Shown here: positions 11,172-59,249 of the stretch, piece after piece
How the letters are laid out: the number at the start of each line of letters is the position of its first letter
How positions within the stretch are numbered: the first letter of the stretch is position 1
Source: Tubulanus polymorphus
Lineage: Eukaryota; Animalia; Nemertea
Assembly (NCBI RefSeq): GCF_964204645.1
Contig: NC_134029.1
Coordinates: 4,774,001 to 4,838,000, forward strand
Length of the DNA stretch: 64,000 bases
Direction: 5' to 3'
Notes under the pieces: generated by a model
Database searches by the model: none
Told to the model about the DNA's origin: nothing
Seen by the model: the letters and a program-made list of their open reading frames with translations, nothing else
Translations under genes and position numbers: made by a program

Positions 11172-12456
11172 ATTTAAAGTGACGTTCGTCTCGTTATGTT
11201 TATTCTACACCAGGATAACAAGACTCCTGCACGTATCTTCTCAACATGTATGTATATTACCACAAATGTGCATCGCATGCAAAACATGTGAAACGTTGTA
11301 TGTTTGGAGAGTGCACATGTCATTCGAAGTGCTATGTAAATCTCATATTCGCAGTTACGAACACTAATACAAAATCGCTCATGTGCTGGGGAAAGTACCG
11401 GCTAACTCAAAACCAACTGAATAAGAAATGTCTAACCGTTTTCCATAAACGGATGTTCCGGTGCACGGATTTTGGTTTTACTTTTGTTACAGATTGGATC
11501 GATTTTTTTCCGTTGAAGGTTTTGTTTATTCAGTTTTTGTTGTGCGCTTCCCCTGGTAAATTGCAAGGGAGAGATATAGATCGGCACGAACGAAGGCATG
11601 TCATCTGGAAGTGGTATCGTTTATAGACAGGACGCCGAGTGGAGTGTATTCCTCTAGCTCTGGATATCAGGGGAATGCATTGGATGTGTTCAGGTCCATT
11701 TCATTAGCACAAGGGAAACCATTTCGCACGAATCTCATAACATTAAACGTCTTCATCACCAAACCAGTGACCTAACTGATCTCATCTGATATTCTAATAA
11801 TGGTTTATTCCTAATGTCCGATTTTATCGACACCAGATAAAAAAATCCATCCAACAAGAGTGAAATAGTGGCGTTTCCTCTACCACAAAAAAAAAACGTA
11901 CGATATGATGTAATAGTTAAAACAACTGGATGTATGTATATGTATATATAACAATATTTACACAAAATCATTAACCATTTATTTTGATATTACATATTCA
12001 ATAACTATGCATATAAACTTTGAAAATTCAACTTGATTTTTGTAATGGAATATAATCGTTTGCCTACTACCGGGAGTTTTATCAACAACGCTTTACAATT
12101 GCGTAGTATCTTTATCATCGGTATTTGCAAGAACGTGAGTGTCATTGGAATCGAAATGCGAAGTAACATTCGCACAGCGTCATTCTACAAGCAGCAGTTG
12201 CTTACAAGTGTATTTTCTTATCGGCTTTTGATTCTATACTGAAAAGGCTCCGTTTAATCCTTGCACCTTCTAATGCATAGCCATCTTATCAAAACGTAGT
12301 AGGGATGACGAGTGGGAAACTTAGGTTAATTGAAGAATTCTCGAATACACGACCAACCAGCCTGCCGCCTACTAACTGCATCCATTTACTGAGTCCGTTT
12401 TAGAAAATCAAACACGTAGAAGCACCATTATTTCACTATCTGACGTACTAAAGTAC

Positions 12457-15400
12457 TCAATAAAAAGCAGATTCTTGTAATTTCGTATTGTAAATAAGCT
12501 CTTTCTGCACCGTTGCCAGTTTGTACGCCTCCCAGTTCAGCTGGTCTTGTAATTTCTGTTGGAGACTTTCTTGTGTGGGATATGGCTGGATCTGTAAGTG
12601 TGAAGAGACAATAAAGTCGGTTAAGCGCGTGGGTAGAATGTCAAATGTTGCAATTGCACTGGAAATCAAAACGGAATGTACGCAATGAAGTGAATCCGGA
12701 AACTTGGATTCAAGTATCAACGGTGGTGCGTGATGAATTCGCATTTCTGACGAACCAATTTATATGTAAATGCGATAGGAATGATACTAGATTTTTACAC
12801 GAATGCTGGATTAATGAGCACATCTCACCGGCAAGCGGTTAATGCCATAAATGCTCGCAAGGGGAAGTCTCGAGAGCCACTGTTCTGTAGCATCACCGTG
12901 TCCTTATGCGTGGGAAGTCATATTAATATCGTCGGAGCAATTCTACCCATTAATCTTCATTTAATCCCTGATTTCCACAAATCGAATACGTACACTTTGT
13001 CGCAATCGTTTGTGGTGACCTTCGTTTAAATGCTGCATAAAGAACTTTTTACTGATGAGAACACATTCGGCACCGTCGGATACCAGTATCATACTCATTG
13101 TATCGTGCATCATACTGAACGCAATCGGTACCATACCCTGAAAGAAGCATAGAAAAAAAGATATCAAATCTAATTCCGGTTTTCCGGTCAATATTGTAGC
13201 ACTAAGTTACAGTCTTGGGGTGATATCCAGTGAATACATTTTGAAGCGAGTGCGATTCTTGAATAGCACGCCGGTAATAATGGAATAGATTTGACAATCA
13301 CGGGTTTTAGTTGTCATCTGATTACGGTAATATACATCCTGATCTACATTCACGCATAATCATACGCGATCATACGCGTATTGTGTTTATTTTCTTCTTT
13401 CTAATTTCCGTCATGTTTGGATGAATGCAAGATTCCAGGCGTTCGCCTGATGGAAATTATAGATGCAGTGAACTGATATGAACTATAGCAAGAAAAGAGT
13501 CAATGAACGAACGTGTCGAACTCGGCTTACTTGGCAATGGCTACGAAGGTAACTCTAACACCGCGGGACACCAACGTTATTACGATTCATTAAAAACTGA
13601 TGGTTCGTTTTAGCCAATGTGAGATCATTAAAGCTCGCTTCGCCGCTTGTTGTCACCGATAAATCGTTATACGATGCACTCTTTATACTCAAAAATTATC
13701 AGAGTACGAAACTCTTGCTGCAAACGTGAATGGTGTTCGTTAAATATTCATTGCCGTCGCAAAATGAAATTTAAGATTTGGTGGAAGTCAATACGGAGCT
13801 ATCCTTTTCGTTTAAGGAAACACGATATATCTGATCATAGGCAGATTAATGAAAGGAAGACAGAGAAATGGAAAGCTTCAGGCGCAGTCACTGTATACAT
13901 CGAAAATAACGCAATCCGGACGGAAGTTTGACGCAGCTGTTGTTACAGAAGAAGGCTGTCACTATATGGAAATTAGTGAAAAAATGGGCGCGAGGAAATA
14001 GTTGCCAACGCACGAAGACTTTACACTTAAAATCTAGACGGGGTCATAGACCGCAAAATAATCCCCGGCCAATAATTCCTCGTGTTAAAGATGAAATACT
14101 GCGCTTAGTTTGGATAATTATGATTTCATATCTATCTTTATCGAAGATTTAGGGATTCATTCCGAAATCAGAAGATGATCTCCGCACGAACCTGTCAGTT
14201 CATCGAGTCATATCAAATTGCATTGATTTGTATTAACAAGAAACTGTAGTAATAACTTACAAACGTGTCCTTGGGTCCCAGTTTTTGTACTTGTATGTAT
14301 ACTTTCTGATTTGGCTTTGGTTTCGGAGCTGATGGTTTCAATTTTGCGTCGGCGAAATTCACTTTCTTCTCTCCAGGCTTTAAAAAAAACAAACAAACAC
14401 AGACTCAGTGTTTAAGCGGATTAATAGTTTAAGGAATTTACAAACCCCGCATCGGAAAAGTGACTTCGTTTTTACGTGAATCGGAGCGTACCTTAGTGTT
14501 TTCGTCTTTGTGCTTTTCTTCGAATAGTTTATTTATGATTTGTTTATGGTCGTCTTTGGTGACGTTCTTTGCTGAAAAAGTGAACGGAAATCGATGTAAA
14601 AGTTTTGGGAGACACGCGATACCAGTGCACGTACATGCCATTGGATCATCTTAATGCTACCTTTTTCAAAATGAATCGTAAATAGATATTTTGTGTCTTG
14701 CATTGTGATAATAACCAAATGTGATATGATAAGCGTATAACATCGACTTATTTCAACGAATAATGTGTCATTGTGAGCTGTGTGTATGTTTTGGATATTC
14801 CTGATAGCGATAGCGGCAGTAACAGCATGACGTCACAGTGACATCATACGGTGACCTTGAAAAACGTACAATAGGAGCTGTTCACCGATATACGTGTGGG
14901 ACAAAGCTGAGTTAAATGATTTGAGTATTGCGATACCACAGGGAAGCTAAATGACTGGACCGAAAATTACCCAATCTCAGTGGAGACCGAATTAAGATTC
15001 TGGCCAATGCGCAAGAGAATGCGAAAGCAATGAAGCAACATCCGTAAATAGAACAGTAAAAAAGCAGCTGGTAACCTGTATTACCCGGGAGGATTTAAGC
15101 TGACATTTCTAAACTATCAAGCAGATAGGTATTAGACTAATACCTTCGTTTTGTCTGTTAATGACGGGTAATTGATTACGGTTAGGTTGAGTTATGATAC
15201 CGCGTTTAGGAACGGTTATCACGGCTGCATTTTTCATCTGTTTACGCCGCGGAGACACTTGCGCCGATCCTGCAATTGTAGTAGTTTGTTTGGGGGGAGA
15301 TTAATACAGCTCCAGCGAATGCGTATCATTTTGTCATGTGATATCTGAGACAAAAGTCAAACCAACGAGTTACGCGGATATTTATGAATTGTATGCCTGC

Positions 15401-18400
15401 CGGGCAAACCCAAACGATGGGTATCATCCATCGCTGGGAAGCGAAGCAACCACGGGATGATAAAACATTAATCAAGTCAACCTTGAACGATGCTATGAGA
15501 TTTGTGATGAAGAATTGATCAATTTCTCCCGTTTACCATTAGTGCATTCTTGTTGGCAAAACGCTAGTTTACGAATGATATTCAACTTCTTTTAGATTGA
15601 TGAACTCTACGTGAGTTGTTGACTCAGCGGAATAGCTGCACTTTTTTTACCTTTATTCGCCCGCAAATCAGGTGAAGTCGCTATCATCGGCACGTTAGCT
15701 CGGGCTGGTTCAAGAGCCTTTAAAACACGACAGGAACCAGTCTTGATGACGTATATCCATTCTGCAGCGTTGCTGTCTCTGCACATTATCACCCCTCGCC
15801 TAAACAGAACAAGTACCAATTAGCCGTTCAGAATCAATTTTTAAATCATGCGTGTATTGCCACGGCTTATGATATTCTATATCCGATTCTGGAATATGAT
15901 ATCTGATAAAACAGGGTTTAATGTACTGTGCGTTTATATAGTTCATTCCTCTGTGTCTTGTCATTCAACCAGATGATGTCTGTAAGGCGTTTTAATAAAT
16001 TTCATCTAAATCTGATCAAAATCTTTCGCAAACAATTCTATCGCGGGACGTTTTCATTCATCAACGATTTACACGAATTAAAATGTTTTATTCGACCAAT
16101 GCAACATCTCATACCTAAAATACGTAAATAGACATGTTTTTGGATCCTCGTAGGGTAGTTGATCGGTCGGCCATCCTTCCAGTAAATCTACGGTTCTCAG
16201 GAACTGTATGTGCTCGGGTTCGACGTCTTTATCGACGTGCATGAAAATATCGACGAAATCGTCCCGGCCGACGGCCAACAATTCGACGTCATCTTTACAC
16301 GTCACAGTGGCGTTACGCGTACCTCCGTACATCAACGCTAGTTCCTAAATCGGGGTGAGAAATAAAATGATATAATGACTATGATCAATAACCGATATGA
16401 TTTCATCGCAAAACGAACGTACAGACGTTATTCAAGTTACGTCACAATAGATCATAATGTCCGTCAACTGAACTAAAACGTGACGGTTGACGGCCATTTG
16501 ACGGCCGATATGATGTAAATAACAATTGAGTATACACGTTAGGTCTGTGGATAAGGTCTATACTAAAATCCCGCAATAAAAAAATGTGTTTCTTTTTTTA
16601 CACGTTTAGGTTCTTATTCTCACTGAGTCGTGGGGATTCAACAAACTTGTTTACGGAAGAAGAAATTAATATTTCAGCTCTTTTCGTAGATGTCGAGAAG
16701 TCCACACGGATTTCTCTTGAAACATTCATGCAATGACTAGACAGCAGGTTTAGGCACGTGATATTTTTAAAACAACTAAAACGCTTTCGTCGCTAAAACG
16801 TTTCCCGGTGAACGAGCTGTAGCCGACAGCTCCGTCACGCGTTCCGTCGCAGAAAGAGGATTAATTTTTCGGAATTTATAATCGGGACGTTATTCATATT
16901 TCACACCATCCACATAATCTTGCTCGATGTAATCTCCGAAGGTTGCTTTTCTTTTTTAATAACCCGTCGTGATGCAGCCGTTTTGTAGGATGAGATTTGA
17001 AGAAAACCTCTTTTTATCTATTTATGAAATCAGATATTTGAAAATTTAACTTTAGTTTTTTACAGATTTTCTGCATATCTGATTCAGACACGTAATCAAC
17101 CCTCTTGGCTCATCAATGAAGTTCCATTACCTAATGGCATTTCTAATGTGGGGGGAGGGGGCGTAGTTATACGTTATACGTGATACGGCCCACATTTACA
17201 GTTTTCAGTCAAATATTTATCTAAGTTTTAAATCGAAATTTCAATGGTGAGATATCCGTTCAACTTACTCCAAAACTGTTGCCCTTTTTCAAGAATGCGA
17301 CCGTGTTTTGAAACGATTCGCCTGTTTTCGGATTCGTTGTCAAAATCGTAACGACAGCTGAAAACGAAACGATAATAGATTCGTTAACGATTCATTCAAT
17401 ATTGTCACGTCACGCAGTAACTGGCGAGAATGTTCGTCTCGCGGTCGCTCTTTATTCACCTGTTCCTGAGAGTATGAAATAAAAATTGTCGGCATAATGA
17501 CCTTGTCTGATGATAACCCTTTTAGCTTCGAAACTGAAAACGAAAACAAATGATTTAAAAGGATAATTTCCGAGAAAGCGAGTTTATATTCTGATTTGGA
17601 GATCATTTACGGACACAGAAAAGAGGCTGACAATAATTTAGAAAATCTAAGTCCGATATTTGAATATCTTTGACAGGTAAGCGATGATATGTTACTTTAC
17701 GTCAATTGTTGAAACTCATGAGATTTCGTTCTTGACGATACTTACTGTTCATACCAACCACGTCTGACTAAAGATTGCTGCATTTTTATTGGAAACTCGC
17801 CGAAAGCTTCGACGGCTTGATTGAGCGACACCAGAGCCGTGTGGAGCTGGTCTTCCGTTCGTTCTTTCGGATCCATCGACATGATCGTTTTCGCCTCGTG
17901 ACTGATTTGCAACTGTGAAGACGACGAATGAAACACTGACAATCAACATCTATCAATTAACACGAACATTTTTTTCTGATTAGATTTTCATTAGAATGAT
18001 GATTTGCAGGGTTGCCAACCTCTGAAAATGCTACTAATGTAACGAATTGAATTTTTCCAGTAACATTTCATAGAAATATGAAAGAAAATGTCAAAATAAA
18101 TCAGTAATCAACAGTAAGACACTTAGTAACATATTTCATATTTTTGTATGCATCAAACGAATCATATCAGTAATTCTTGTTATAAAATAGTAACGACAAC
18201 TGAAAATCAGGAACAGTTGGCAGCTCTGGATTTAGTAAACATGTTAATTGTGAATGAGCTGGTAAAAATATAGACAGCAAGTTATGAAAAGAAACGTTAG
18301 ATTCAGTCAACATCTGTCGCCATCTGCCATAGCGCACAAATATTACCATAACGGAGAATTCGCTTTTAAATCGATCATCCATTACCTAGCCGTTCGGTTC

Positions 18401-21400
18401 ATTAATGAATGCTGATCGTTTTTATTTTCAAAGTGTTTTTACCTCTTTGCAAGCTTTGAAATGAGCAGGGTCGAATTCTAGGTCATCCCCGTAAACCGTT
18501 CGCTGATTTATCTCATCCTGAAGTTGACTGAATGACATCAACTTCGCCTCCTGCCGTTTATTTTCTCGCCTAAGAACGAAAAAAAGCAAAAGCAGTAGAT
18601 GAACATCACGTTTAAACTTACTTATCTATACATACTTGAAGTTAAATGGAATGTATAATGTTTACCTGGTTGAGCTGATGGCGACTAAAATAATGTGGAT
18701 CAATTTTGCGGCTCTTCTAAATCTGACCAACGGCTACAAAATATGAAATGAAATCAAGATAACGATTTGTTGTTGATTCCAATCTCTGACGGCTCTTCTA
18801 GTTCGAAAGCTGAAACTTATTCATATCAAATTGATAATCAAGAGCTCAAGTCAAAATCCCTATTTGACTACCTCGACAACTGTTAACTTATGGAACGACG
18901 GTCGTCGATGTCTACGGAATAAACGATGCACGCGTAACGAAGGGAAACTATTCATATTGAGTCGATGTTTGTACTTCACGATATATTTCTTGTCGTTGTC
19001 CTTTGTCGAAGGTCTTATGTCGTGGCATCGGTTGAAGTCGTACGACTGATAGACGACAGTCTGACGTCTCTCGATCGGACTTATCGGCGGGAAGAAACTG
19101 GACGGCGAATCGCCAGGCATATCACGAAAAAAAATCGTTTCACCGAAATCGAATACGTATTAGAAAGGTTGTTACCAGCCTCAAATCGTCAATACTGTTA
19201 TTCTAGAAATGAGGCGATGGTTATAAATTCTGATTTTCCAACATTCAGATTCGTTCAACGGTAGAAGTATAGCACATGATACTCCTATAATCCAAGGTAA
19301 TAGTTTATGAAGGAAAAGCTGTTGTTGAATCCGGTGCGGTTGAATTTCAGCCCCACATGAAATGACTAAATTCTAATCGAGGAACTCTCACGATGTTAAG
19401 TGTAGGGTAATTCCGAATCAGTGTCTACCTGATTTAGTGAACATATCGTTTTATGCGATACCGCGAGAAATGAATGATTCAGAAATGAATTTCTCACGAA
19501 TAAAGCCATAAATATCGGTAAGTTTTAATCCATTTGTAAACACACGTTGCAATTAAATCTATTTTCTATTGCCTTATAGGGGTAAATGATATTCATGATG
19601 GCTAAATTGCTTCAAGACACAATACGTTTTATTCGATCATTTAACGTGACAGAGGACGAACAATTGTATTGGAAAATTACAGGGTTTTGTGTTGTTTAAG
19701 TTCAGCCATCTGGAAATACATGAAAGTCAAAGAGTACGTCACTGTCGGTTTTATGGCTCTGGGAAAATTCAGTTTATCGCCGTTGAAATGCGGCGTTGTT
19801 TGGAGCGAAGAAAGAATGGATGGAAGAAACCACGTAGACGCAGCACCGATCTGAACCGTCCTCGTTCGATCGACTCACCTGTATTGATGACCTGCGTTTG
19901 CTTTGATTTTTGTCCGATGAATCGTTATGATCGTGATCATCCACCAAATCCGTATCGTCGCCGCCGACGCCGACGACGTTACGGCGCACTTGACTGCGTC
20001 TCGATCGACGTCGTGACGTATCCATCGAACTGCGTCTCTGGCGAGCGAGTAACGTCCATAGTTCCATCGATCTGCTGTGACCGGAAGCGGCAGCGGCTGC
20101 AGCAGCTGCAGCGCCTACTACCGAGCCTCGACGACTGCCAGGTCGGTTCGCCGGATTAATATTAAACTGGACGCTGGATCTACGACCGCTAGAAACGGCC
20201 GGTGGAGTGACCGTACTCATTCTACGTTCTCGAGGCACTTCCTCTGGTGAGCACTCTATCTGATTATCGGGTCCATTTTCTTCCTTAACAGGTTCGAATA
20301 AATCGAGTTCTTCTAATTTATTGAACAGTGTTAACAGTAACTGATCTCCCTGTTGTTTTCTGGCTCGTTGCTTATCGAGGGGAGCCGAATGGATGTACCT
20401 CGTCAATCCGTATTTGCTCTTCGATTTAGCGTAGTGATCTTCATATTCTTCGAGGATCCTGTGAATATACCTAGCTTTGTATCCTTCGTTCGATTTTCGT
20501 AATTTGTTCTCGTTGTTGACGGTAATGATCGGTTTGAAAAGTTTATCTCCGCGTTTTACGCTGTACTCCGCCTGTTCCCGTCGCGTCCGCAAGGCCTGTC
20601 CGTCGGCGCAATAGAATATCCGATGCCTTTTTCCGAGGCGATCGCTCGAAGTCATGAGCTTATCATCCATAGTTCAATATCAGGTTTGACGTATAGAAAT
20701 ATTACTTTTCTCGCTTCTTCGAAACTGCCCTAGCTGAAATATCTATGCGAGCATGAATTCGTCAACTCAGCAGCGCGAAAATCATGTTTAGTTAGGATTA
20801 AAAGTTCCGAATGAGAGTTTAAAATGAAGCTAATGCGGCAATTAGTTGATCTCGTTTACGGTATCTGAAACCGTTTTGATAATATCAGTATCAACCACAC
20901 TGATTCAACAGTCACCGTTTATTGGTTCCTTTGAGTGCGACTTGCAGCAGGTTTCTTTATTACATTTCTATGAATTTTTTTTCACCCTAATAATAGCACC
21001 TGTTTTTCTGTCGAAATCGTTACTTCTATATACATGACAGCTATGTTGATTTATTCGCTAGTAATAAAGTCTACGTCTCCATTTACAACGGACAAAAAGC
21101 CAAGACGAGTGTATGATATATGAGTATTTAGATTTTCAATTACAATATCGAGTTCATTTGTATTTAGAATATACGATAATAAAGTTCTCTTGGAATACAG
21201 TTCTTTATATGAAAGCTAATGCTTTCTCTATTTATAGCCATTAGAGACTAGGCATTGTTGAAGATAGAAATCTGGCTTAATAATATTCATTGAAAATAGC
21301 ACATTTTCCACCGAACTTCATTCTGGTGCTATTTATAAATTTGCTCATTTAAGAATTTCATTTCACTTAGATTCGATTGAAGCTGAAAATGGCGGTTTTA

Positions 21401-24400
21401 TGAGGTGTAATCGAGTCTGAATTAGAATTTTCGTTTACGTCATCGTCTGAATAACCAATAAACAATCCACGCCTGGGGAAAAGGAATTTATGAGCGTGGT
21501 TTCGAGGAATGTTTGGACTATTCTATGAACGTTTCCAAGTGGCGTCGTTTTATAGTTTTTGTCTAATCCTAATACAAAGCGTTGTGAGCCCTAGCATGCA
21601 CACTTCTCTGGTCGACAAAAATGAAGTACACACTTGAATTAATAAAACGGAACAGTAACATTAGACTGAACAGGTGGTTTAGTTCCATATTATTAGTTCA
21701 TAATAGTGTTTACTGCAAGCAAAACGATTATTCTGAATACATAGCAAGGTCTCCAATCATTATTACGACTTGACGTTCCCCATAAAGTGATTAAGAAACC
21801 ATTAGCGCGCTGTGAACAATATTTCCAGAGCTTGGTTAGATTCCCTTGCTCCTAACTTACCCAGTTGTTGTTATCGTAGTGATATCCCGATGCGAATGAT
21901 GTCCTGCGACTCAGCACGCCTGCTGTTTGACTTCTGGACCCGATGTTATCACCCACCTCGATGACGCCGATCCGTCTGCCCCTCCGTCGTGGGGTAACAG
22001 CAGACGATGGCCCAGTCAGCGAGCCGCGTGGGTATCTGGCCGTCACATTCCTGTTCTGTTTATTCTCGTCAATGATATTCCTCGAATGCATTCTCAACAG
22101 TTTCTTCAACTCACCACTTCGGCCTTTACCTCGACGTGGGGAAGGGGTCGCGGTCGATGGCTGTTCATCCTCTTCGCAAAGCTTTCTATCCGCTTCGTAC
22201 GGCGAGTGAGCAATTGTAGCTCGCTTTACCTTCGTTTCTTTCTCTGATAAGTCCAAACGATGGGCTTCTTTAGCTGCCGGACCTATTTTAGCCTTCCAGC
22301 TGTTGATGACGATTTTCTTCCTCGCCATACCGGATTGAACCTTACTTCCATCGTCGTTTAAGGCGTCGTCAATCGTCTTCTGTTGAAATACTTCCGAATA
22401 GCGACGTTGTAGATACTTGCCGCTGGTCGGTGACAATGCTCTTACCGGTACTGGATCGTTGAGAACCCGTATTAGAAACTGTCCTTTCGTATAGTTTTTC
22501 AGCACGCTCCATTTTTCGTTAGCCCTCGTCGCCTCCGCACTAGAATTGTTGTTCACAGTTTTAGCGTTTATATTTTTGACGGATGGAGCCAGCGAAAGGG
22601 TTGCCTCCTCCTGAGTATTGGCTAGAAACTCTTGGGCTTTTCTCTCAAGAGCGAAATCCATCGTGTATTGGCAGATATCAAATACAATTATACAGAAATT
22701 CCAAACCGTCAATAGGATTACGCAAGAATCCACTGACAGTTAAGAAAACGCTCTTCCAGCCCCTAGTCCTTCTAGTTCGACATACTAAAACTGATCAGAA
22801 CCGTAGATGCCTTTACGGCACATATTTCGTAATCGAAACTATACCTTCGCCGGTTGTTCGTGAGTTGATTCGAGCTGGTTTAATTAGTCATAAAATCCGA
22901 ATTTTATTACCACGCACGGGTAATTGCGTTATCAATTATTAATCAAACATCATACAGGTATATGTTATATGTATGTGATATGATATGATATTATGATCCA
23001 CACAGTTTCAAGCGCTGAAATTCTAATCATCATTTTCCCGCTCTGCTGTATTCTGTATTCTAATATTGTCTGGAGTGGTGGAAATTGCGTCCGCTCGAAA
23101 GTTGTGTCCGTCACTCGCGTCCCCCGCTGACAGGACACGACCGCTATGGGACACCGGAGAAAGTGCGCGCCTCGTAGCCGCTCCAACACTCATGCACACG
23201 CTGGCGAAAACCAAATTGTCTGATAGCTAGAATCCGGATGAATTTCTTTCGTACTCTCTCTTACGAAACCTTTTAAGTAAAGAATTTCATCTGTCGAAGC
23301 TCAAAAACGACGTTGGCGTTTCCGCGGGTTTTCGTTTAATGATCTAAATGCGTGTAAGTTATAGCCGTACAATGTAAGCTTTTATGTCGGAATCATGCAG
23401 GATTAACAGTGACGACGAGGGGTCAGTTAGGGATTAAGTCACGGTTATTAATCCCGATTCAAAGCGCTAATCTCGCTGGCCTCAACCACGGCATAATAAG
23501 ACGGCAATTGCAGACGTCGACCAATTAATTTGATAATACGCAGTGACGAGCATTTGACACTGTAAACAAACACTAGTGATACACGATACACGACACGAGC
23601 AACGTCGAATTCAAAGATATATGAAATAAATAAGAAAATCAACAACGCAGGGAAAAAGTGCTTTCGTGTGCGAATGTGTATTTTAAGATTATAGTTCAAT
23701 GCGCTTGTTTTGTGTTCGTAATGAGGACAACCCTGAGCGCCCAGAGGCGTCGACAAGATTTAATTGAAACCGCTTGCAGTGTTTTCCAGTACTACCCACA
23801 GAGACAGTGTCGTAATATTTGAAACGCGATAAAAATATTTTCAACGAGACGTAATACTTGTAAACTGCATTACCTTGTATTACGACGATCTGTTGTTAAC
23901 TATGAATACGAAATTGTAAGCTTAAACCTATTTCGTCTATTTAAAGATCTAGACTCTTACGTCATAAGTTATTCGTACGTAGACTTTTTGATTACGTATT
24001 CAATTCAAGTAAATATAATCGTATTTAGCGTTTACATTTCGCTTGATCTATTTTATAGCGCTCTTAGATATTCTTATGTTGATTCCTACGTAAGAAATTC
24101 GACTTTATTGCACCAGACTCGAATCGTTTATTCCAGGATCTTTATGTATATCAGTAGTGAATATATAGACAGTTTCATGGGCACCCGCGTAATGAAATAA
24201 TCATTACCTTTACGGGTAAAACGTGATCGTCCCCGGACACGACGATGTAATAATGTCTGACAGTCGTTTATTCCGACTCGGCCAACCCGGAATAAACGTC
24301 GAAAATCCAACAGGGCTAGTCTTTAGAAACCAAGATCTGAACGTTGAAAAGCAAAACAAACAAACAAACAAACCGAGAAGTTCATTCCGACTTAGCTAAC

Positions 24401-27400
24401 TCGGAATAAACCTCGATCTTTTTCTACAAATATATCCACAGGACGCTTACGTAGATTGTACGCCATCGGATGCATTGGTCCTTATATTACTTAAACTAAA
24501 CATACAATGCCTGCCACCGAATATCTTTATGGCCACATTTTCTCATGCGTTTAAAAGCGGTGTTAATTTACCTGAAATCCTCGAGAAATATTCCGGTGTT
24601 TTTGTTTATCGAGGGTAAAATTTCTGAACTGCGCGACAACTTTCTTTCTCTGAGATGCGGCGTATAAACTCAATCCGTGATTCGTCGTTGGTCGCCTTCT
24701 CTGCGCGCCTGTTCTAGCATGTTTCATAGATTCGGGATTCTGATGACGGTCCGCTCTGGCAGACGAGTTATTCCGCGACTCCTCGCTCCGGTACACGGAA
24801 TAAAGTCGATAACGTTCCTTTTTTGAATTTCCAGTTGTTCGAACCGACGGCAGTTGTTGCGTCTTCTCGCGAGCCTTGGCCGCCCATTTCAGCCCGATAC
24901 CCTTCGCTTGTATAACGCTGGCCAGTATATCCCTTGACTCCTCGTAGGAGTCCTCTTGAAATTCATCATTAAAATCCATAATGACTTCTCACTTCTATTT
25001 ACCTGCCCGTTTTTAAATTGCGGTCTATTTTGAAGCGGAATATGATTATTTCCTAGCAATTACAGCGTCATAACGCGATGTTTGAACTCTTCTGGAGAGA
25101 AATAATCGCGAATTAATCTTTCGTGTGCGTGCAAAATGTCATTTTCTCAATTACGGTGTTAGACGTGTGGTTACGGAATTCGCCACGAAATTTCCTACAC
25201 TTATGTATGTATGTATAGGCTTGCTGACTTTAAGAACAGTCAATGCTGTCTTTCTAAGCGATAATCACTTAATCCGTAGATCCTCAAGTTGACGCAACGT
25301 AAGCGTTTATAGCCTGTAGCCTGTATCGGTAATTATTCCAAGATCTCGATAGGGAAAAATACAATTTTCATACACTGCAATAAACTAATAGGTGAAAAGA
25401 ATGAATCTATTTCTTCCCCACTTAGTATTCATTTGGTCTACGCACGGACTACCTCGTAGCCCTATGAAGAAAAGTCCACGATGCGTGTATGGCGTGGCCA
25501 CTTAGAAAGCGCCTTACATTTTATAAAAGCACGTAAAGTGATCTAAAAATGACACGTAATTCCCGCTGGGGGTATGTATAGAAGGAGTCACAGGAAAGCT
25601 TCACTGATATTATTTTGAATAGGCCTACCAACAAATAAATGATTCGTCTTAAGTATTACTTATATATTTGAAAATGTTTTTCAAAAAAGACATGCACACA
25701 TTATTACTAGACCCAGGAACAGATGTATCGTAAGTTTGATTCGAATAAACTAGAATTTCAAATTGGTTTATGAAAATTGAGCCAGAATTCCAATTCATGG
25801 GACCGGGTCCTGGGGGATACTAACCGGTATATGGACAATGTGACGTTCTTTATCTTCGATGTGATGAGTGGCCGCAGCCAGAAGCCTTCGTCTCCACGCC
25901 CCTAATTTTGGTAACCTGACCGCTCCGTCTCCCTTGTCATTTCGATTTTTAAGCCTGAAAATATATTGAAACATGGCGCTTAGACATTATATAACAAACA
26001 AATCAACTAGAAAGTTTATTGACCCCCTTGCAGAAAAATAACACATAGAATTATATTATTGACAATATTATATGATATTGGTAATACATGGTAATATGAT
26101 ATATATACATCAATGAAATTATTTTGAATTTGAATATATCGACAATTGAATTGAATTGACCGGGAACCAGTCAAGCCCCAATGCTTATGACGTAGGGCAG
26201 ATTCCACTCAAATGACAATATCAAAAGACACGAAAATTCATCAAATAGAAAAAAAAATCATGGAATATATTCAATTACAAAATGAACGCCAAAGTTCACA
26301 AATGTAATTCTCATTTTAAAACGGGATATCACATTTAAATACTGATGACGTAGAATATTCATCGACTCACGGAGAACCCCCTTAAATAACTTATAGTAGT
26401 TATCAATGTATATAAACATTATTGTGACGGTTTTGACGTCGTCATACTTAATGATTGGAACATAGTTAAATTCAGTGAGATAGATTTAACTCGGGACCAA
26501 GTTGCAAAGAGAGGTTGGAGTAAAATATGGTCTTAAATCTAAAACTGGTCTTAAGTTGTTGTACCTTCCCGATGGACAAACACATGTCTAAATCTAAGCC
26601 TTGGCAATGTAGAATAGAATATATTTCATTGCTCACAAAAGTATATTTCTTAGAGCAAAAAGACAATACAACATGAATGTCAATACAATACAATATCAAT
26701 ACAATATCAGGACAATATCAGAGGCAAAATTATGTTGTATTTTGGATAGGTGATAGCCTAGATAGAACTGGCTCCTGGGGCTGGTTCCTTAGTTGAGACT
26801 TAAGTCCGAAAAAGGTCTTCAACCTTAAGACTTGTCTCAAGTTGTTAGATTGGTTATAGAAGTAAGATGGTCGTAAATTGGTCTTAAGTCTAAGCCATGA
26901 CTATGGAACTTGGCCCTGGTTCTTGATAATTCCCTGCAATAAAAAAACAGATCCGGATCCTGGCTGTTTGTGTAGAAAATTCACTTTATCAATATACAAT
27001 AAATAACATTTTATTCTTAGTATATCTTATATCATCTTTTATCCGGTTCTTAGATTATTTTTTCATCACGTATATGAAGAATATCATATTTCGTTTTGAT
27101 CGACGTGTCGTGCTATACGGTTTTAGTTTGTCAAATCAAAGCAATAGATTCCATATCAAACCACTCGTTGAGAAAGACGAGACCTGATTCACTTACGCTT
27201 TTATTCTAGAATACCAGTTACTATTATCTCTCCGCAATTTACTATTAACAGACTTTCCTTTCAGAAATCTGAGCTTTTATGCGGCGAGGTCTATTTTTGA
27301 CACAATCTCTACGAACGGTTAGTGTTTTTAATGTCGTGGCTTAATCGCTATTCAACGCGTATTACATTATCAAATATACGAGAATTAAAAGTGAATCTTT

Positions 27401-30400
27401 AAATCACGGCGTAAATTTCTAGCAGTGCGTTATTTCTGTTTTCACGCTGTGTAATTGAATCATATATAGGTACGACAGGACAAGATTTGGCTCCCGCAAC
27501 CCTACTGTGGCAATCGAGTATTCCACTTGTGGCAAGTGAGGATCCAACATGTTCGCGAGTTGGTGATAGGGCTCAACTTTTTTCTAAGCTCCAATAAAGA
27601 TAGGACAAAACGAATAGGAAAACGAACGTTTGAAATAATAAAATCAGGTCTAAAATAATTTACTACTAAAATCACTATTACCTTTCTTTAAAAGCCGCGG
27701 CGCCTTTTATCACGCCCCACCTGGGGGTTAACTCAGCCCCGCCACCGACAGGGGGCAGTGCGAACGTCACAGAAGGTCGCCTGCCCAGCCTCTGTTCGCC
27801 ATCTTTTTGTTTAACGATTCCTAAAACTTTGCCCAACATTCCCCACTTGGATCGATGGGATAATCCAACATCTAAACCTCCGCCGATTTTAGCGAACGAT
27901 TGATTAGCTTGTAAACGAATCAGCTTCTTGCGTAAAAGTTCGATTTTCGGCGTCGCCGTCGATGTTGCCGTCGAACTTTTCCGAGATTTCGGCGATTTTG
28001 ACACGATCGATACTTCGCTGCTCTCCGCCGAACTTTTAGTCTCACCGAGCGTCAAAGCACGAATTTCGAACTGTTGTCTATGATGAGATAGCATGATCGC
28101 TAGATTTATGGTTTTCTTATACACAAAAAAATCGGTCGAAAAAAATGTCTCCTTTGTTTAAATCACATTAAGTAATTGAAAAGCCTGGGAAAGTTACCTT
28201 TTACGCGCGCACCCTGATGTCTTATGCGAAATAGTGTACATTCTCGCTTGGAAAATCATGGTTAGTATTGACTTTGAGGGTCTTGCTGAGAAGTCTTTAT
28301 CATTGAAGTACTTATTAGCTTCACACAGGGACAAAAAATTGGGTTCGGTTTTTCTATTATCGAGGAAGAAAAGACCCACACGTAACAAGAATTGCCCGTT
28401 GTCATCTAATCTCAATAAAAGCTGAAACGATTCTTCGAAAAAAAGAGCTTAACACGTACGGCTGAGTTTTCTACAATACCATGTTAGTTTCGCGAATGTG
28501 TCAACAACACCAGAAATATCACAGCAGCGAATATCATATTTCAAATATCGCAAATCACGATGATCTTGATTTAAGTCCATCAATAGGTTCCATGTATACC
28601 GGTAGATCCACAGTGATGTAGCCCTCGGCTGGACTCGAAGTCGTGCCGAGCAGTAGCGCTATACCATAATGATTGTTACTACTCTCTGCTACATTTGCCC
28701 AGACTAAATAGCGTCGCCCGGAAATCATAAGAAACACTATTCAGTCTTGTCACGGGCTAAGTAACTGCAGTTAGCAGTTTCCGCTCGTGCCAAAGTATAT
28801 TTTCAAAAAGCTCATTGTATACGCTAAGTGGTCGACCATGTTTTCACGGTTTCGCGTACTTTCTTAGCCTACTCGTAGAGGACGGTACTGGTCTAGATTT
28901 AGAAACCCCATTAATGGCATCTAACCTTTAAACGCATTTTAGCTACTTTATGGGCGACTGATTCTGAAAAGCGTCACAACGGACTTCAAACACGAAAAAG
29001 GCCTATAATAAAAAAAGTCAACATCGTAGATATTCTTGTCGAAAAGACACGTGTATACGCATATTCGTTTCTGGAATAGCCGTGGTGCGTATCGGAACAG
29101 GAGAAAATGAAGATTTTCAACTCTTGTTTATAAGAAAAACCACAAACACCGAACAACCTACACTTTGAAAACCTACAGCAAAAACTATAAACATTTAACA
29201 TCTGCAAAACACGATATGCTTGAGATATTCTTTTTAATCTAAGTTCAGTTAAATTTCGACATAGATTCGGCGCCGCTTAAGACATGTTCGAGGTTTCTTA
29301 TTCCCCATTCTGCGTGGATGTGGTTAGATAAGAACAGTTCAAGTTACCTTGAGGTGTCAGAAGGCCGTCGACCATCTCCTTGCGATCGAATAGCTGAACA
29401 AACTTTCGGCGAAACGAATGTCAAAGCAAAACTACCTTCATTTTTTAACATCATAACAGTATCCGATTTTCAGCGAACTCTGTGTGGTCCGGCTAATCAG
29501 GAATACAAGTATATCCGATAGTATTTCATATGATCATTTATATCACCTGCAGATATTTCACAAAACACAGACAGCCTTATTATCCTTGTTTTATCCAAGG
29601 TTTTTAGAAGAGTCCTATAATTTCACTCGCAACAGATCACCTATAGTAATTTCTGCTTGAAGCGAAATGATTCTTCTAATATCAAAGCGTACGCTTTAAA
29701 TAAACATGAACAATACTTCATTAATCCTAAAATCGCCAATGTCTCGAACTCTTTATAGCCCGGGGAAAAGGTGAATTGTCCCATGAAAAACGGCTGTTAA
29801 TTCGCGCAATTATAAAGCTTAATAGGTCGTTAAACTATGCCCCCTGCCAGACAGACCCATGGGGAAGCCTTTCTTATATGAACGTGTAGTCCGCACTCTG
29901 TTAGCTTAATCAATCTTATCAAAGCGAATTTTTTCAACTCGTAGTAAAAAATCCCCTATTAAGAGGTCTAACCGAAATAAAGAGATTTGATTAGACTTTT
30001 TATTCAAGTTTTATCGTGGTAAGGATGTGTATTAAGCTGTTTGGTAATAGTGTAAATGTATATTGCGATAGAAAACGCTAAATTATCTCTTAAATCTTTT
30101 AGCATAGGTATATTTTAGCGCCTATATCGTACGATCTATATAGCTTGTCTTTAAACCGGGCGTAGGTCGGCCTTATGGGACGCGACGACTACGGATTATT
30201 GAGTCAGTACAGTACCAGTCCTACCTGCTGTCTGAACCCGGGTCGCCATCGGCTTCATTATCACGTGACTCTTTCCTCCTGAACCTGGTATGCGTAGAAA
30301 TGCGTGAATTCACTTCGCTCTCGGGACCCGAGGATATCAACGCGTCAGCTCGGTTATCACGCCCCCTTGCGGCAGCCGCTGCTTTCACGGCGTCAACCAG

Positions 30401-31921
30401 CTCACTGAGGCGTCTTTGATGCAACCGCTTGTTATTCTTCACGCGTAGTTTCTCCTTGCTATCCTCGCTCGATGCCGACTGTTCCTTGCTTAGCACCACG
30501 GGCAGGGAACTGACTTCGCGCGAAGCCTCCGGTCCCAAAAATTGTCTATCCACTTTCGGCACTGGTAGTGGTGGTATCGGAGACAGATCTCGAGTCCTCA
30601 TTTGCGATAGGAATTGGTTGTGATTTGGTACGTTGAATACGGGTTGTTGTATCGTCTGTACACCGATCGGAACTATAGAAGCTAGTTGCGTATATGCCGG
30701 TTTTAATAAAGCGAATCCTTCGTTCGTCGAGTCGTTATTGAACACCGAGTCCTTGCGAGGTACATCCATATTGTTTCAAGGTTCCAAATGACGAATGTAG
30801 TCAATAAAAAACTCGTGATTATATTCTGATGAACCCTTAATCGCTATGGTCGTCACTGCGATATTACGATCGGGATCATAGTTCCCAGCGTTATTATTAT
30901 GCCTGCCATATCTTACATAATAGTAGAGAATATAATTGTCCTTTTTCGGCGAGATAAGATAGAAATATTTGCTGAAAACCTATCCGGTATAGCAACAATA
31001 GAAGAAAAGATATTGATGATATCTACGAAATCTTCTCGATATTTTCAGGACTGTCTCCTTTCAGGGGGCACAGCAGGGAACCGTAAAATACCTAAGCCGA
31101 CTGAATATAAGATTGTTTAGATTGTACCTTTGCTGTTACCTTCTTTTTGTTGGACTATGTGTCAATGATAATAAATAACCTTCGAAAACGTATATCAGTT
31201 TATTCATTAGAGGGGTGCTTAATCTTCGGCACTGTGTCAGTCATTCTTTCAACGCTTGAATATTGTTTTATTATAAGTCATATGTCATAATGTCGAATGT
31301 CTTTTTATCGTGCGTGAAAAACAGGTGGCATTGAAATTTGCGATAAAGAAGTTCGATTGTAAAAAGGAAGGCAGCACCAGTTCGCCTATAGAACCTATAG
31401 ATTCGATCACAAATAAAACGATTGTGTTGTGCCACAAACGCTGCCAAATTTGATTCATCGCGCATACTTAATTTTCATTCACTGCTTCCAAAATTCAATG
31501 AAAAATACACATCAAGTTTGAGCTCGTCTAGAGATTTAAATACCTGTTTGCAGAGTATAGTGTATCGAGGATCTTCGGTAATTTGTCATCCGTACATTGT
31601 AGATATTGTACCTGTTGAGACGTCAAAATGCCCGATATTGTGCTACGCCTTTGGACAATCCGTATGACTGAGAAAAATGAAATAGAAACAAATCTGTTAT
31701 ACCAGGAACGTGAGGAAGCAAATTAGAAAATCGACTCTAACGGTTCCAGAAATCTTGACCAAGTTTACAGTTGGTTAAATCTAGCTGTGACTTCGAGATT
31801 TAGTCTAGAACCGTGGAACCAGCCGACGAATATCATTAACTAGATAAATTTGTTTTCATTCATATCGGGATAGCATGCTGATAGAATACAAATTGAGAAA
31901 ATTATCATTACCTGGGAACAT
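12457..31921 (-). CDS. Cyclic nucleotide-binding domain-containing protein (CNBD2-like), most upstream isoform ~563 aa; exons 31921-31912, 29393-29348, 25954-25825, 18733-18666, 18569-18443, 17912-17746, 17533-17460, 17357-17269, 16344-16115, 15799-15651, 15269-15144, 14571-14492, 14377-14261, 13137-12994, 12591-12457
   Basis: 15 GT-AG exons join in frame (1692 nt). cNMP-domain motifs VIIRQGHYADNFYFILSG, LKKGNSFGELALMYGGTRNATV, EWIYVIKTGSC, LVSDGAECVLISKKFF, and C-terminal PYPTQESLQQKLQDQLNW. The 12 shared exons are much more certain than the three 5' exons. Confidence 0.85.
18007..18228. mobile_element. hAT-like MITE in a CNBD intron
   Basis: TIRs CAGGGTTGCCAAC / GTTGGCAGCTCTG; near-identical 6-bp flanks GATTTG / GATTTA. 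Confidence 0.6.
18872..19120 (-). CDS. Possible CNBD alternative first coding exon F (MPGDSPSS...)
   Basis: ATG-initiated ORF with RRPS; the phase 0 donor GAG|GTAGTC is weak. Confidence 0.35.
19879..20670 (-). CDS. CNBD alternative first coding exon E (MDDKLMTS..., phase 0 donor)
   Basis: TGA ACT ATG start context; 264 open codons ending at the consensus donor CAG|GTGAGT in phase 0; many RRxS motifs and a poly-Ala run. Confidence 0.75.
21861..22661 (-). CDS. CNBD alternative first coding exon D (MDFALERK..., phase 0 donor)
   Basis: 267 open codons ending at TGG|GTAAGT in phase 0. Confidence 0.72.
24572..24979 (-). CDS. CNBD alternative first coding exon C (MDFNDEFQ..., phase 0 donor)
   Basis: In-frame TGA four codons before the ATG; ends at CAG|GTAAAT in phase 0, fitting the acceptor at 18733. 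Confidence 0.68.
26778..26915. mobile_element. PIF/Harbinger-like MITE
   Basis: Termini GGGCTGGTTCC / GGAACTTGGCC with a CTG TSD on both sides. Related fragments at ~26490-26560 and ~31740-31825. Confidence 0.6.
27480..27580 (+). repeat. Diverged SINE-like repeat, copy 2 (partial)
   Basis: CCCGCA..CTGTGGCAATCGAGTATTCCAC..GGCAAGTGAGGATCC aligns with 42448-42500. Confidence 0.6.
27682..28094 (-). CDS. CNBD alternative first coding exon B (MLSHHRQQ..., phase 2 donor)
   Basis: ORF ends at AG|GTAATA in phase 2, fitting the acceptor at 25954; contains RRPS. Confidence 0.6.
30225..30769 (-). CDS. CNBD alternative first coding exon A (MDVPRKDS..., phase 2 donor)
   Basis: In-frame TGA shortly before the ATG; open for 181 codons; AG|GTAGGA donor in phase 2 fits the acceptor at 25954. 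Confidence 0.65.
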
Positions 31922-32078
31922 TTTAGCAGCTCCTGCGTCCTGCGCGGTTATTTCACTGATACTGTTCTTTGTACTCTGTCGTAGTTCCCTATCGTGTTCG
32001 TCGGTTAATTACCTGAAATTCCATCTTTGTATTCGAATTTTCTCATCAAACACATCCCCGGAACTGTAATAGAACACA

Positions 32079-32141
32079 CCGGAAGTCGACAATGTGGCGG
32101 GAAATTGTATTTAGAGCGTTGCCATGGTTTCTAACCGGAAG
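32079..32141. promoter_or_regulatory. Putative CNBD core promoter: RFX X-box-like site with ETS-like sites
   Basis: GTTGCCATGGTTTC at 32118-32131 (one perfect half-site), CCGGAAGT at 32079 and CCGGAAG at 32135, about 200 bp upstream of the first ATG. Confidence 0.5.
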
Positions 32142-34064
32142 ATACAAGACAAACACTGCGCGGAATTTCATATGTTTGCGAAACATATTGAATTATCCGA
32201 TTAGCGATTTATTTTCTGATTGATTCATTCCTGGAAATGTGTTATGGAAATGCATAATTTGCATGAGGATGATCGCGGGTATACTCTACTGATTCGCCAT
32301 CTGTCGGTTAAATCGAATGAAATTCATCGTGCCGTTGGTTAATATAATTTGATTAATCAAAGTTATACCGCCGTCTTTACGGAGATCACTCGTAAACCCT
32401 CGACGTGATGGATATAGATTTGATGCTCTTATCGTAATTAGTACCTAATACGATTAATTAACAGATAATCGACTGATCCCTAGAGGGCGCTTCACGAGTT
32501 TAGACATTCAATTGCTCGCTTACGAACTCATTAGTGCGTAAACACTTAGCCCCCGGTCTGTGGCCCTTTCCTCGACGATAATCTAATAAATCACCGATAA
32601 TTCAGAAGTGATTTCTCTCTAACGATTTGTAGTTGATCGTATTGAATACGGTTACGCGCTGTATTTCACTGTCGCTGAGGACAGTGTCGTTTCAAAGCTG
32701 ATCCGTGTATTATAGAGTAACCAAAATGTCAAGTTATGCGTATCTTCGGCCCCAGAGTAGCACTACATCATTAAGTAGAGGACTTATGTTCTATTCCGAT
32801 CTAATCTAGAAGCTTTTACATCGTTTCGTAGTAGTAGTCCTTGCTCACACGCGAATCCAATTGAAGGTCGCCGATCACCTCTTCGTGGTGGGTAGGTCAG
32901 CGGTCACCTTGGAGTTACTCCAAGCTGTCACCAAGGCCACGTCATTTTCAATCCTCCCCTCCTGAGCGCAGAGACAATGTCAGAATAGGTTCAAAATAAC
33001 TGTCAAAATACACTAATAATTTCATGTAATTTTTTCACCCTTAACCCGCTTAGCTTCGAAACCCCGATTTCATTTAATCATGCAAGGTATCATAAGCTAG
33101 TTGTTACGCAATTGCACCTTTGTCAGAATATCATACGTAGGTCTTCGTACGTAATTCAAGCAAAAATGCTGATTTTGAAAATAACGATATACTTATAAAT
33201 CAAAAATCTTATCGACTCAGTGACCGTGCGATCAGTTTTGCAATTATATCTTGGAATTTAGATTGTACGGAAAACCCCGATTATGGCGCGTGGCAGCTGT
33301 TCCCGCGTACGGAGAGAGAAATGTGATTTTTCTGTACCGATCACCGTTCGACGAACGTCACTTTGTTTTTGAATAGATTTCGACGATATGAAAAACCGGT
33401 TTAAAGGGATATAAAACTGTTATCGAAGCGTCAACAGCTGCCGTCATTTTATGCGATTAATATACACGGTAGAAAAATAGATGAAATTTCGACTTGTTCG
33501 CGTTCGAAAGAAGCAACCGCATTTGCGTAATACACATCAGAGGTTGCACGGTGCAGCGAGGGAGCAAAAATGTCATTTCGTCAAGTCATACATTTGTAAA
33601 TCCGATAGCTTCGGTTCGAGGTGATATTGTTGGAAAGAGTAGACTTTTTACGAATTTTAGAAGCGAATTGAAACGAAAATAACTGACACGCAGAAATACT
33701 GGACGCGTTCATGTGCTGGTGGTGATTTAATATTCAAGGCTGATATAAAATACGTTCGCTTCATTAGATGCGGATAAGATTAAATTAACGTTTTATTCGT
33801 TTGGGAGTGAATTGGAATTTTATGGTTTTTGACCAAATCGGTTTCAGACGTGTATCATAAATTACTCTATTGCGTATTGCTGCTTATTGAGATAAAACGA
33901 GGCTCGTTTTGCATCGGCACAATTGCATTCGATTGCTCCCGATCGGAGCGAGCTGGCACTGCTGCAACTGTTCAAAAAATGTCAATCAGGTCACGCAGCC
34001 ATAAGCATCAGTTACGCAGTGACCACACCATATTGGGCGGTCAAACACTGGTATTACACATTAA

Positions 34065-50900: not shown

Positions 50901-51456
50901 AATTTAAAATGTTTTAACGCTTGATTTTGGATTACGTTATTATTTAGAATATCATTTATTTCATTTACGCGCTTGAATATCTAAACGACTGAATATTCAT
51001 GAATTATTATCCATCATGTTAGCCGTGTATTTAGTTTTGCTAATACTTCTCAACGGGTCCAGTCTGTTCGGCGCTTATATACCGGACGAGCAGCGACTGA
51101 TGTCGATGTTGTTCAGAAATTACGAACCGGCGTCCAGGCCGGTTTACAACGCCTCCAGTACCGTGCTCATCAAATTCGGAATTACCATGACGCAAATCTC
51201 AGATATGGTAAGTCGATGTATAGTCGTTTACGTGTTGTTGTTTCTCTTCGTTTCAGAAATCGAAAAACACAAACCGAACGAAAGTCCGTCGGTTCATAAG
51301 CACCACGCCGTTAAACGGAAACATAAGATCCCCGACGAGCAGAGATTGCTGATGCGTGTGCTGAGAAACTACGATACGGCGGCGAGACCGGTTTATAACG
51401 CTAGCGATACGGTGCGGGTCCGTTTCGGACTCACTATGACCCAAATAGCTGATATG
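44918..51456 (+). CDS. Nicotinic acetylcholine receptor subunit, isoform 1, 5' part: signal-peptide exon 44918-44996 spliced to 51257-51456; remaining exons not found in this window
   Basis: MKVRLVIERIFGVICTAYLVYCQSYH ends at G|GTAAGT (phase 1) and joins the phase 1 acceptor TTTCAG|AA at 51257, giving ...IPDEQRLLMRVLRNYDTAARPVYNASDTVRVRFGLTMTQIADM, the N-terminal helix and first strand of a Cys-loop receptor. Confidence 0.8.
48998..49030. mobile_element. 33-bp P-element-type remnant (excision footprint)
   Basis: CATGGACGTATAAA-TCTAG-TTTATACGTCCATG, flanked by the 7-bp direct repeat GTCTGAG (48991-48997, 49031-49037). Confidence 0.75.
51016..51207 (+). CDS. Nicotinic acetylcholine receptor subunit, isoform 2 first coding exon (own signal peptide)
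   Basis: MLAVYLVLLILLNGSSLFG signal peptide followed by AYIPDEQRLMSMLFRNYEPASRPVYNASSTVLIKFGITMTQISDM, ending at ATG|GTAAGT in phase 0. Confidence 0.85.
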
Positions 51457-59244: not shown

Positions 59245-59249
59245 GTTAA

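What the first reader, a model, noticed from the sequence alone, without database searches (positions are those of the whole stretch)
18666..32140. CNBD gene with a tandem array of variable first exons spliced to a constant cyclic-nucleotide-binding region
Seen: upstream of the shared exon 18733-18666 (phase 0 acceptor) lie five or six large ATG-initiated ORFs on the same strand, each ending at a GT donor. C, D, E (and weakly F) end in phase 0 and fit the shared exon directly. A and B end in phase 2 and fit a 130-nt bridging exon (25954-25825, phase 2 to 0). A, C and E have in-frame stops just before the ATG, so they cannot be internal coding exons. A further start MFP (31921-31912) plus a 46-nt exon (29393-29348) also feeds the bridging exon. 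Inference: 6-7 different, apparently unrelated N-termini on one constant ~500-aa CNBD body, resembling the variable/constant promoter-choice layout known from clustered protocadherins, UGT1A and PDE4. I do not know of this being described for CNBD2-like genes.
Basis: partly seen in the sequence, partly recalled or inferred. Interest (0 to 1): 0.85.

Follow-up and report, generated by a model that had tools for sequence, protein, structure and literature searches.

The report
cAMP-binding gene with swappable N-termini
A ribbon-worm gene attaches at least four, and probably six, unrelated protein starts to one shared cyclic-nucleotide-binding body, likely by using separate promoters, and related genes from sea anemones to clams and acorn worms switch their starts at the same point, which would give one cAMP sensor different addresses in different cells.

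Summary
Six ATG exons (A-F, 83-267 codons) lie upstream of a 12-exon, 501-aa body with tandem CNBDs; only the first keeps the cAMP-binding motif. Spliced RNA contigs join E and F separately to the shared exon, and A to the bridging exon. RefSeq's automatic models (LOC141905196, Tubulanus polymorphus) already hold A, D (shortened), E and F. B and C rest on sequence alone; MFP plus the 46-nt exon is unsupported. A-F are unrelated to each other, so this is the PDE4/plectin layout, not duplicated protocadherin/UGT1 cassettes. Isoforms diverge at the same P-x-x-R-F-R helix in 19 of 30 multi-protein species sets (nemerteans, molluscs, hemichordates, amphioxus, anthozoans). The exons themselves are shared only within a class or phylum. 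A sister paralogue has one N-terminus in three matched genomes. The N-termini are basic and carry PKA-type R[RK]xS/T sites at 2.8 times chance. Separate promoters, targeting and ciliary function are inferred, not shown. I found no paper describing this. A new member of a known kind.

The parts
30225..30769 (-). First coding exon A (181 codons, phase 2 donor), spliced to the bridging exon
   Evidence: Joint 30225>25954 in X4, depth 4.6, 35 letters on the short side; the model equals RefSeq X2, 726 aa
27682..28094 (-). Candidate first coding exon B (137 codons, phase 2 donor), would use the bridging exon
   Evidence: Open frame, donor score 8.3, GC 0.50 against 0.37 in the flanks, 2 of 2 listed variants synonymous; no RNA joint, no RefSeq protein, no real homologue
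25825..25954 (-). Bridging exon (130 nt, phase 2 to 0) for A and probably B
   Evidence: Acceptor used in X4; in RefSeq X2; its joint to 18733 was not listed or 12
24572..24979 (-). Candidate first coding exon C (136 codons, phase 0 donor)
   Evidence: Open frame, stop 3 codons upstream, donor score 9.7, GC 0.48 against 0.38-0.40; no RNA joint, no RefSeq protein
21861..22661 (-). First coding exon D (267 codons, phase 0 donor); the start may be the internal Met at 22091
   Evidence: RefSeq X5 equals the D model from residue 191 on; 3 of 3 listed variants, all upstream of 22091, are non-synonymous; no joint listed in X4
19879..20670 (-). First coding exon E (264 codons, phase 0 donor)
   Evidence: Joint 19879>18733, depth 29.3; the contig runs unspliced to 20886; equals RefSeq X1, and X3 without exon 15269-15144
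18872..19120 (-). First coding exon F (83 codons, phase 0 donor)
   Evidence: Joint 18872>18733, depth 15.8; the contig runs to 19262 and has a frame-keeping 3-nt insertion; equals RefSeq X4
18666..18733 (-). First constant exon, encoding the basic amphipathic helix that begins PLVRFRR; the conserved switch point
12455..18569 (-). Eleven further constant exons to the stop: CNBD-A with intact FGE...R cassette, and a degenerate CNBD-B split by a low-confidence insertion
   Evidence: 11 of 11 constant introns joined at GT-AG in X4; Pfam PF00027 E 1.7e-21; fold model and PKA-R matches; motifs
29348..29393 (-).
   Evidence: The frame fits but the acceptor scores 3.5; no joint, no RefSeq protein
32118..32131 (-). 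RFX X-box-like site (consensus recalled), possible ciliary-type promoter element
   Evidence: One of two sites with at most 2 mismatches to the 14-base consensus in the window; a half-site also lies at 30988, 0.2 kb before A. Weak.

Best explanation
One gene joins at least four, probably six, unrelated first coding exons one at a time to a shared 501-aa tandem-CNBD body, likely from separate promoters, so that a predicted cAMP-binding protein would carry a different basic, probably PKA-phosphorylated targeting tail in different cells. Shown: the exon layout; the separate joints of E and F to the shared exon and of A to the bridge; the lack of similarity among A-F; the intact FGE...R cassette in CNBD-A only; the same switch point in relatives from several phyla. 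Inferred: each exon has its own promoter; the tails are disordered address or anchoring segments; PKA phosphorylates them, giving cAMP a second input; the protein works in motile cilia or sperm; exons are gained and lost by lineage while the acceptor in front of the PLVRFRR helix stays fixed.
For: RNA joints. RefSeq proteins equal to the models. Stops just before the ATGs of A, C and E. The E and F contigs run 216 and 142 nt upstream of the ATG without a joint, and E reads through its best upstream acceptor at 20864. No blastp match among A-F. Same divergence point in 19 of 30 species sets, 17 of 28 without two sets that mix annotations. The two-tier form with a bridge also occurs in Lineus and Argopecten. 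One bivalve N-terminus is kept across oyster, scallop and pearl oyster. The paralogue has one N-terminus in Argopecten, Lineus and Mercenaria, where the orthologue has 4, 3 and 4. R[RK]x[ST]: 69 against 25 expected in 46 N-termini (maximum 40 in 500 shuffles); six other spacings 1.1-1.6-fold; 16 against 3.1 in A-F; no excess in the bodies, 9 against 10.5. Net positive charge in 36 of 41. Genes named cnbd2 mark the telotroch in a hemichordate (PMC13554239) and correlate with ciliogenesis in an echiuran (PMC10380512).
Against: No transcription start data; contigs cannot show starts. The E and F joints have 28 (+2) letters on the short side, under the tool's 31-letter rule; I read this as the overlap at an assembly-graph branch, which is inference. 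RefSeq may rest on the same reads, so it is not independent. B and C have no transcript evidence. All three listed variants in the 5' part of D change residues. 9 of 30 sets show one N-terminus, including all four vertebrate sets, and in 2 more the variation lies one exon upstream. The sets were chosen for having two or more proteins; single-protein orthologues (Lingula, Haliotis, Liolophura, Patiria, turtles) were not counted. No shared upstream motif in A-F. The PKA-motif excess has no proteome-wide control for disordered regions. The papers' cnbd2 genes may be other paralogues. cAMP binding was not tested.
Confidence: 0.6

Rival explanations
1. One promoter near 32100 makes a non-coding leader that is spliced to one of A-F, so the choice is by splicing and not by promoter.
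For: Promoter-like X-box site at 32131; acceptor-like sites 123-353 nt before A, B, D and E.
Against: The E contig passes its acceptor-like site unspliced, and the F contig shows no upstream joint. 20 of 40 background windows hold an equally good acceptor. No joint from 31-36 kb was listed.
Confidence: 0.1
2. The alternative starts are real, but what is selected is the promoters. The tails are near-neutral, low-complexity sequence that any new first exon may add, and the fixed switch point is simply the old intron before the first conserved exon.
For: No homology between phyla apart from one marginal hit (E 0.008) among 54 N-termini; lengths from 7 to 439 aa; non-synonymous variants in D; any new first exon must splice to the next acceptor.
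Against: Open frames of 130-270 codons are kept; exon types are conserved across bivalve orders, across two acorn worms and between Nematostella and a coral; the PKA-motif excess is spacing-specific; the paralogue has not gathered such exons.
Confidence: 0.25
3. A protocadherin/UGT1-type cassette array made by tandem duplication of one variable exon.
For: Tandem large single exons upstream of constant exons, with matching phases.
Against: No protein similarity among A-F; no DNA repeat among them; two phase classes; lengths differ threefold; no shared upstream motif.
Confidence: 0.03
4. The ORFs are independent single-exon genes, chance ORFs, or consecutive exons of one mRNA.
For: Still formally open for B and C, which lack RNA joints.
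Against: E and F each join the same acceptor, and A joins the bridge; upstream in-frame stops; chance test.
Confidence: 0.02

Closest known systems
PDE4 genes (isoform-specific N-terminal regions from alternative promoters)
   Same: cAMP-pathway gene, many unrelated N-termini on a constant core; in PDE4D5 the unique N-terminal region binds a scaffold protein (passages and a reference title of PMC7460819).
   Different: The core here is a putative cAMP receptor with no catalytic domain found; promoters and partners are not shown; the switch point is traceable from anthozoans to bilaterians.
Genes with multiple variable first exons (PCDH, UGT1, GCNT2, plectin, NOS1, GR; PMC1885805)
   Same: Tandem first exons each spliced to common constant exons.
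   Different: Unlike PCDH, UGT1 and GCNT2, the exons are not similar to each other and encode no Pfam domain; there is a second tier through a bridging exon.
CRIS/CNBD2 of mouse (PMC3854790)
   Same: Soluble CNBD protein with the FGE motif and the phosphate-binding Arg; relatives are auto-named 'CNBD2-like'.
   Different: Orthology is untested and doubtful: the vertebrate members of this clade are 'CNBD2-like' LOC genes of amphibians, turtles, crocodilians, platypus and basal fish, and no therian protein was among the 65 hits. The paper reports CRIS as lacking in molluscs and has no passage on splice or N-terminal isoforms.
PKA regulatory subunits and Epac2 (nearest solved structures)
   Same: Tandem CNBD fold; the helix before CNBD-A aligns to Epac2, E 1.7e-23.
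   Different: About 12-24% identity in the fold matches; the second CNBD lacks the Glu and Arg and is split by an insertion; no GEF or kinase domain.

Membership tests
Multiple-variable-first-exon genes (broad class) | Two or more upstream exons each spliced separately to the same constant exon | tested here: met
   E and F to 18733 in X4; RefSeq X1-X5
Multiple-variable-first-exon genes (broad class) | Each variable exon has its own promoter | tested here: inconclusive
   Contigs are unspliced upstream of E and F but cannot show starts
Multiple-variable-first-exon genes (broad class) | Tissue- or cell-specific use | not testable with these tools
   One spliced run from one sample
Protocadherin/UGT1-type cassette cluster | Variable exons are similar paralogues of near-equal length and the same frame | tested here: not met
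   No blastp match, 83-267 codons, two phases; definition from PMC1885805
Protocadherin/UGT1-type cassette cluster | Conserved motif upstream of each variable exon | tested here: not met
   No 8-mer in 4 or more of 6 upstream regions; control mean 1.68. A crude test.
Cyclic-nucleotide-binding proteins (PF00027) | CNBD above the Pfam cutoff with FGE motif and phosphate-binding Arg | tested here: met
   76.4 bits against cutoff 27.5; FGELALMYGGTRNAT; residues defined in PMC3854790
Cyclic-nucleotide-binding proteins (PF00027) | Measured binding of cAMP or cGMP | not testable with these tools
   Needs a binding assay
CRIS/CNBD2 orthologues | Groups with mammalian CNBD2 in a tree | not tested
   No mammalian CNBD2 was retrieved, so none is in the tree

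The most novel reading that the evidence does not exclude
An unstudied cAMP receptor of motile cilia has kept, since the cnidarian-bilaterian split, a fixed docking exon onto which each lineage builds its own set of unrelated, PKA-switchable basic tails. Promoter choice gives each cilium type (epidermal, ciliary band, sperm, sensory) its own version: the layout is conserved while the exons are replaced.
Probability: 0.25. Interest if true: 0.72.

Novelty: new member of a known kind. Interest (0 to 1): 0.5.

Why it matters
It offers a clean case of a gene layout kept across animal phyla while the variable exons turn over, with a sister paralogue as a built-in control. If the tails are addresses, it gives a testable route by which one cAMP sensor tunes different cilia or sperm in marine invertebrates. 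The mechanism itself, alternative first exons, is well known.

Tried and rejected
No whole genome was held, so there is no genome-wide baseline for multi-first-exon genes and no DNA of relatives; intron phases in other species are inferred from where isoform proteins diverge. The run search listed no holder on record as RNA; I read X4 as RNA from its spliced joints. X4 shows no cover over B, C, the 46-nt exon or MFP, little over D, and none at 31121-33524; run X5 laid nothing. These blanks are not evidence of absence. The HMMER search with exon B returned 3 hits. The best is a tandem-repeat protein whose score sums 17 weak stretches; I rejected all three, the third without fetching it. Exon B resembles Lineus X3 weakly (shuffle p 0.018), but E scores better against the same sequence (p 0.006), over 28 comparisons: not accepted as homology. 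The two bridging exons share a VRLP(K/R)L word (p 0.012): a hint only. Pfam found nothing in A-F apart from a sub-cutoff DUF1764 match in C. The Atlas search gave only unnamed cNMP-binding clusters. Three look-ups of earlier findings returned nothing. The careful tree did not finish; the quick tree is used. A calmodulin-binding role for the PLVRFRR helix is a recalled resemblance and was not tested. No complex prediction was run.
Full report
Observation. On the minus strand I rebuilt a 12-exon constant region from 18733 to the stop at 12455. All introns are GT-AG and it encodes 501 aa. Upstream lie six ATG-initiated exons ending at donors. A (30769-30225) and B (28094-27682) are in phase 2, matching a 130-nt bridge (25954-25825). 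C (24979-24572), D (22661-21861), E (20670-19879) and F (19120-18872) are in phase 0, matching the shared exon directly. In-frame stops precede the ATGs of A, C and E by 2, 3 and 1 codons. The exons are 47-52% GC against 34-42% in their flanks. Five exons of 130 codons or more were found, against a mean of 0.013 in 300 Markov simulations and none on the other strand. At 80 codons the contrast is weaker: 6 against 0.28, with 3 on the other strand. The test is generous, because the donor matrix included A, E and F and the simulation has uniform composition.

Transcript evidence. The run search gave five runs, none on record as RNA. Laid on 12300-32250, X4 joined 11 of 11 constant introns at GT-AG, while X2 and X3 of the same sample joined none, so I read X4 as RNA. 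Laid again at 96% likeness, X4 gave four joints: one constant intron, 18872>18733 (F, depth 15.8), 19879>18733 (E, 29.3) and 30225>25954 (A to bridge, 4.6). The E and F joints have 28 (+2) letters on the short side, below the tool's 31-letter rule; this is what a branch in an assembly graph would leave, but that is my inference. The E contig continues unspliced 216 nt above its ATG, through its best acceptor-like site, and the F contig 142 nt. No joint was listed for B, C, D, the 46-nt exon or bridge-to-shared exon.

Annotation. A search with the largest constant exon hit RefSeq LOC141905196 of Tubulanus polymorphus at 100%. Four of its five proteins equal my models: X1 = E, X2 = A plus bridge, X3 = E without exon 15269-15144, X4 = F. 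The fifth, X5, equals D from the internal Met at 22091. So four N-termini are already in automatic annotation, possibly from the same reads. B and C are not. Among the variants listed (a cut table), 2 of 2 in B, 2 of 3 in E and 3 of 3 in a constant exon are synonymous, but 3 of 3 in the 5' part of D are not. The full length of D is therefore less sure.

The protein. Pfam finds one cNMP-binding domain. The AlphaFold model of the F isoform (mean pLDDT 57.9, pTM 0.42) has residues 1-91 below 50, a confident first CNBD, and a second beta domain split by a low-confidence insertion. It matches the tandem CNBDs of PKA regulatory subunits, and by sequence Epac2 is nearest. CNBD-A has FGE and the Arg that PMC3854790 shows is needed for cAMP sensing in mouse CRIS; CNBD-B has neither, in this protein or in the relatives whose second motif was printed.

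The variable exons. A-F show no blastp similarity to each other, no DNA repeats and no Pfam domain. They are basic, and so are relatives' N-termini (net positive in 36 of 41). The PKA-type pattern R[RK]x[ST] (consensus recalled) occurs 16 times in A-F against 3.1 expected, at least once in each exon. It occurs 69 times against 25 in 46 N-termini, while six other spacings are at 1.1-1.6 times expectation. Constant bodies show no excess. There is no control from other disordered proteins.

Relatives. I compared isoform proteins in 30 species sets (a paralogue pair and a cross-species pair were left out of the count). In 19 they diverge exactly before the P-x-x-[RK]-F-[RK] helix. These are Tubulanus 4, Lineus 3 in two tiers, Ostrea 4, Argopecten 4 in two tiers, three Mytilus species 3-4, Mercenaria 4, Dreissena 2, Biomphalaria 3, Glandiceps 3, Ptychodera 3, three Branchiostoma sets 2 (two of them mix independent annotations), Nematostella 3 and three corals 2. 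In Acanthaster and Rhopilema four starts diverge one exon further up. Nine show one N-terminus: Babylonia, Clavelina, Oculina, Anneissia, one Branchiostoma hybrid, three frogs and alligator. The sets were picked for having several proteins, and many orthologues have one RefSeq protein only. Exon types are shared within groups (oyster, scallop and pearl oyster; two acorn worms; Nematostella and a coral), but among 54 N-termini only one marginal match (E 0.008) crosses groups. A Mytilus duplicate gene carries the bivalve X1-type tail that was absent from the isoforms I fetched of its main gene, a hint that isoform roles can be split between duplicates.

Phylogeny and control. The quick tree of 52 bodies (SH-aLRT only, midpoint root) has a 36-row bilaterian clade (98) and a separate paralogue clade (100). 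The cnidarian genes cannot be assigned to either without a root. In Argopecten, Lineus and Mercenaria the paralogue has a single protein, judged from cluster size and the lack of an isoform label, where the orthologue has 4, 3 and 4 N-termini. The Mizuhopecten paralogue varies only by an N-terminal extension; a Littorina paralogue labelled X2 was not examined. The vertebrate members are LOC genes of amphibians, turtles, crocodilians, platypus and basal fish; no therian, bird or lizard protein was among 65 hits of a word-limited search. Orthology with CRIS/CNBD2 is untested.

Mechanism. Most likely (0.6), separate promoters choose one first exon. It is spliced directly or through the bridge to the fixed acceptor, giving a cAMP-binding body a cell-specific basic tail that sets location or partners and is modified by PKA. 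The layout and joints are shown; promoters, targeting, phosphorylation and a ciliary role are inferred. The ciliary link rests on genes named cnbd2 in PMC13554239 and PMC10380512, which may be other paralogues, and on weak X-box-like sites. The main rival (0.25) is that only the promoters matter and the tails are near neutral. A single leader with splice choice is less likely (0.1).

Literature. I read passages and section 6 of PMC3854790 and passages of PMC13554239, PMC10380512, PMC1885805 and PMC7460819. Other papers were seen as search listings only, and no supplements were read. Eight searches showed no paper on alternative N-termini in CNBD2-like genes; the library lacks most subscription journals.

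Verdict. It is a new member of a known kind (PDE4/plectin-like alternative first coding exons), made more interesting by a switch point shared from anthozoans to bilaterians with turnover of the exons. Interest 0.5.

Noticed in passing
window 51017-51458 (+): A Cys-loop ligand-gated channel gene has two similar tandem copies of its first ligand-binding-domain segment (about 51070-51207 with a signal peptide in the same exon, and 51259-51458 behind its own acceptor), both ending at a donor in the same phase: likely alternative duplicated N-terminal exons. Both match PF02931 weakly.
   Followed up: partly
window 52524-59901: BEL/Pao-type LTR retrotransposon on the minus strand with one 1961-codon open frame and two 653-nt LTRs that are identical, so a recent insertion; it lies just downstream of the channel exons.
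   Followed up: partly
window 7721-8815 (+): Intronless 364-aa seven-transmembrane receptor, Pfam Srw/Srx matches.
   Followed up: no
window 15144-15269 (-): A 126-nt constant exon in the CNBD-B insertion is skipped in RefSeq isoform X3 and included in run X4.
   Followed up: partly
window 22998-23829: Run X4 has contigs here (537 nt at depth 10.1; 180 nt at depth 4.6) with no joint, between exons C and D; could be a long 5' leader of D or a separate transcript.
   Followed up: no
proteins P0139, P0237-P0271: This CNBD clade is present in amphibians, turtles, crocodilians, platypus and basal ray-finned fish, but no therian mammal, bird or lizard protein was retrieved; possible lineage losses of an unnamed cAMP-binding gene.
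   Followed up: no
window 26000-27600 and 18050-18200: High-copy interspersed repeats inside the introns, with depths in the hundreds to thousands.
   Followed up: no
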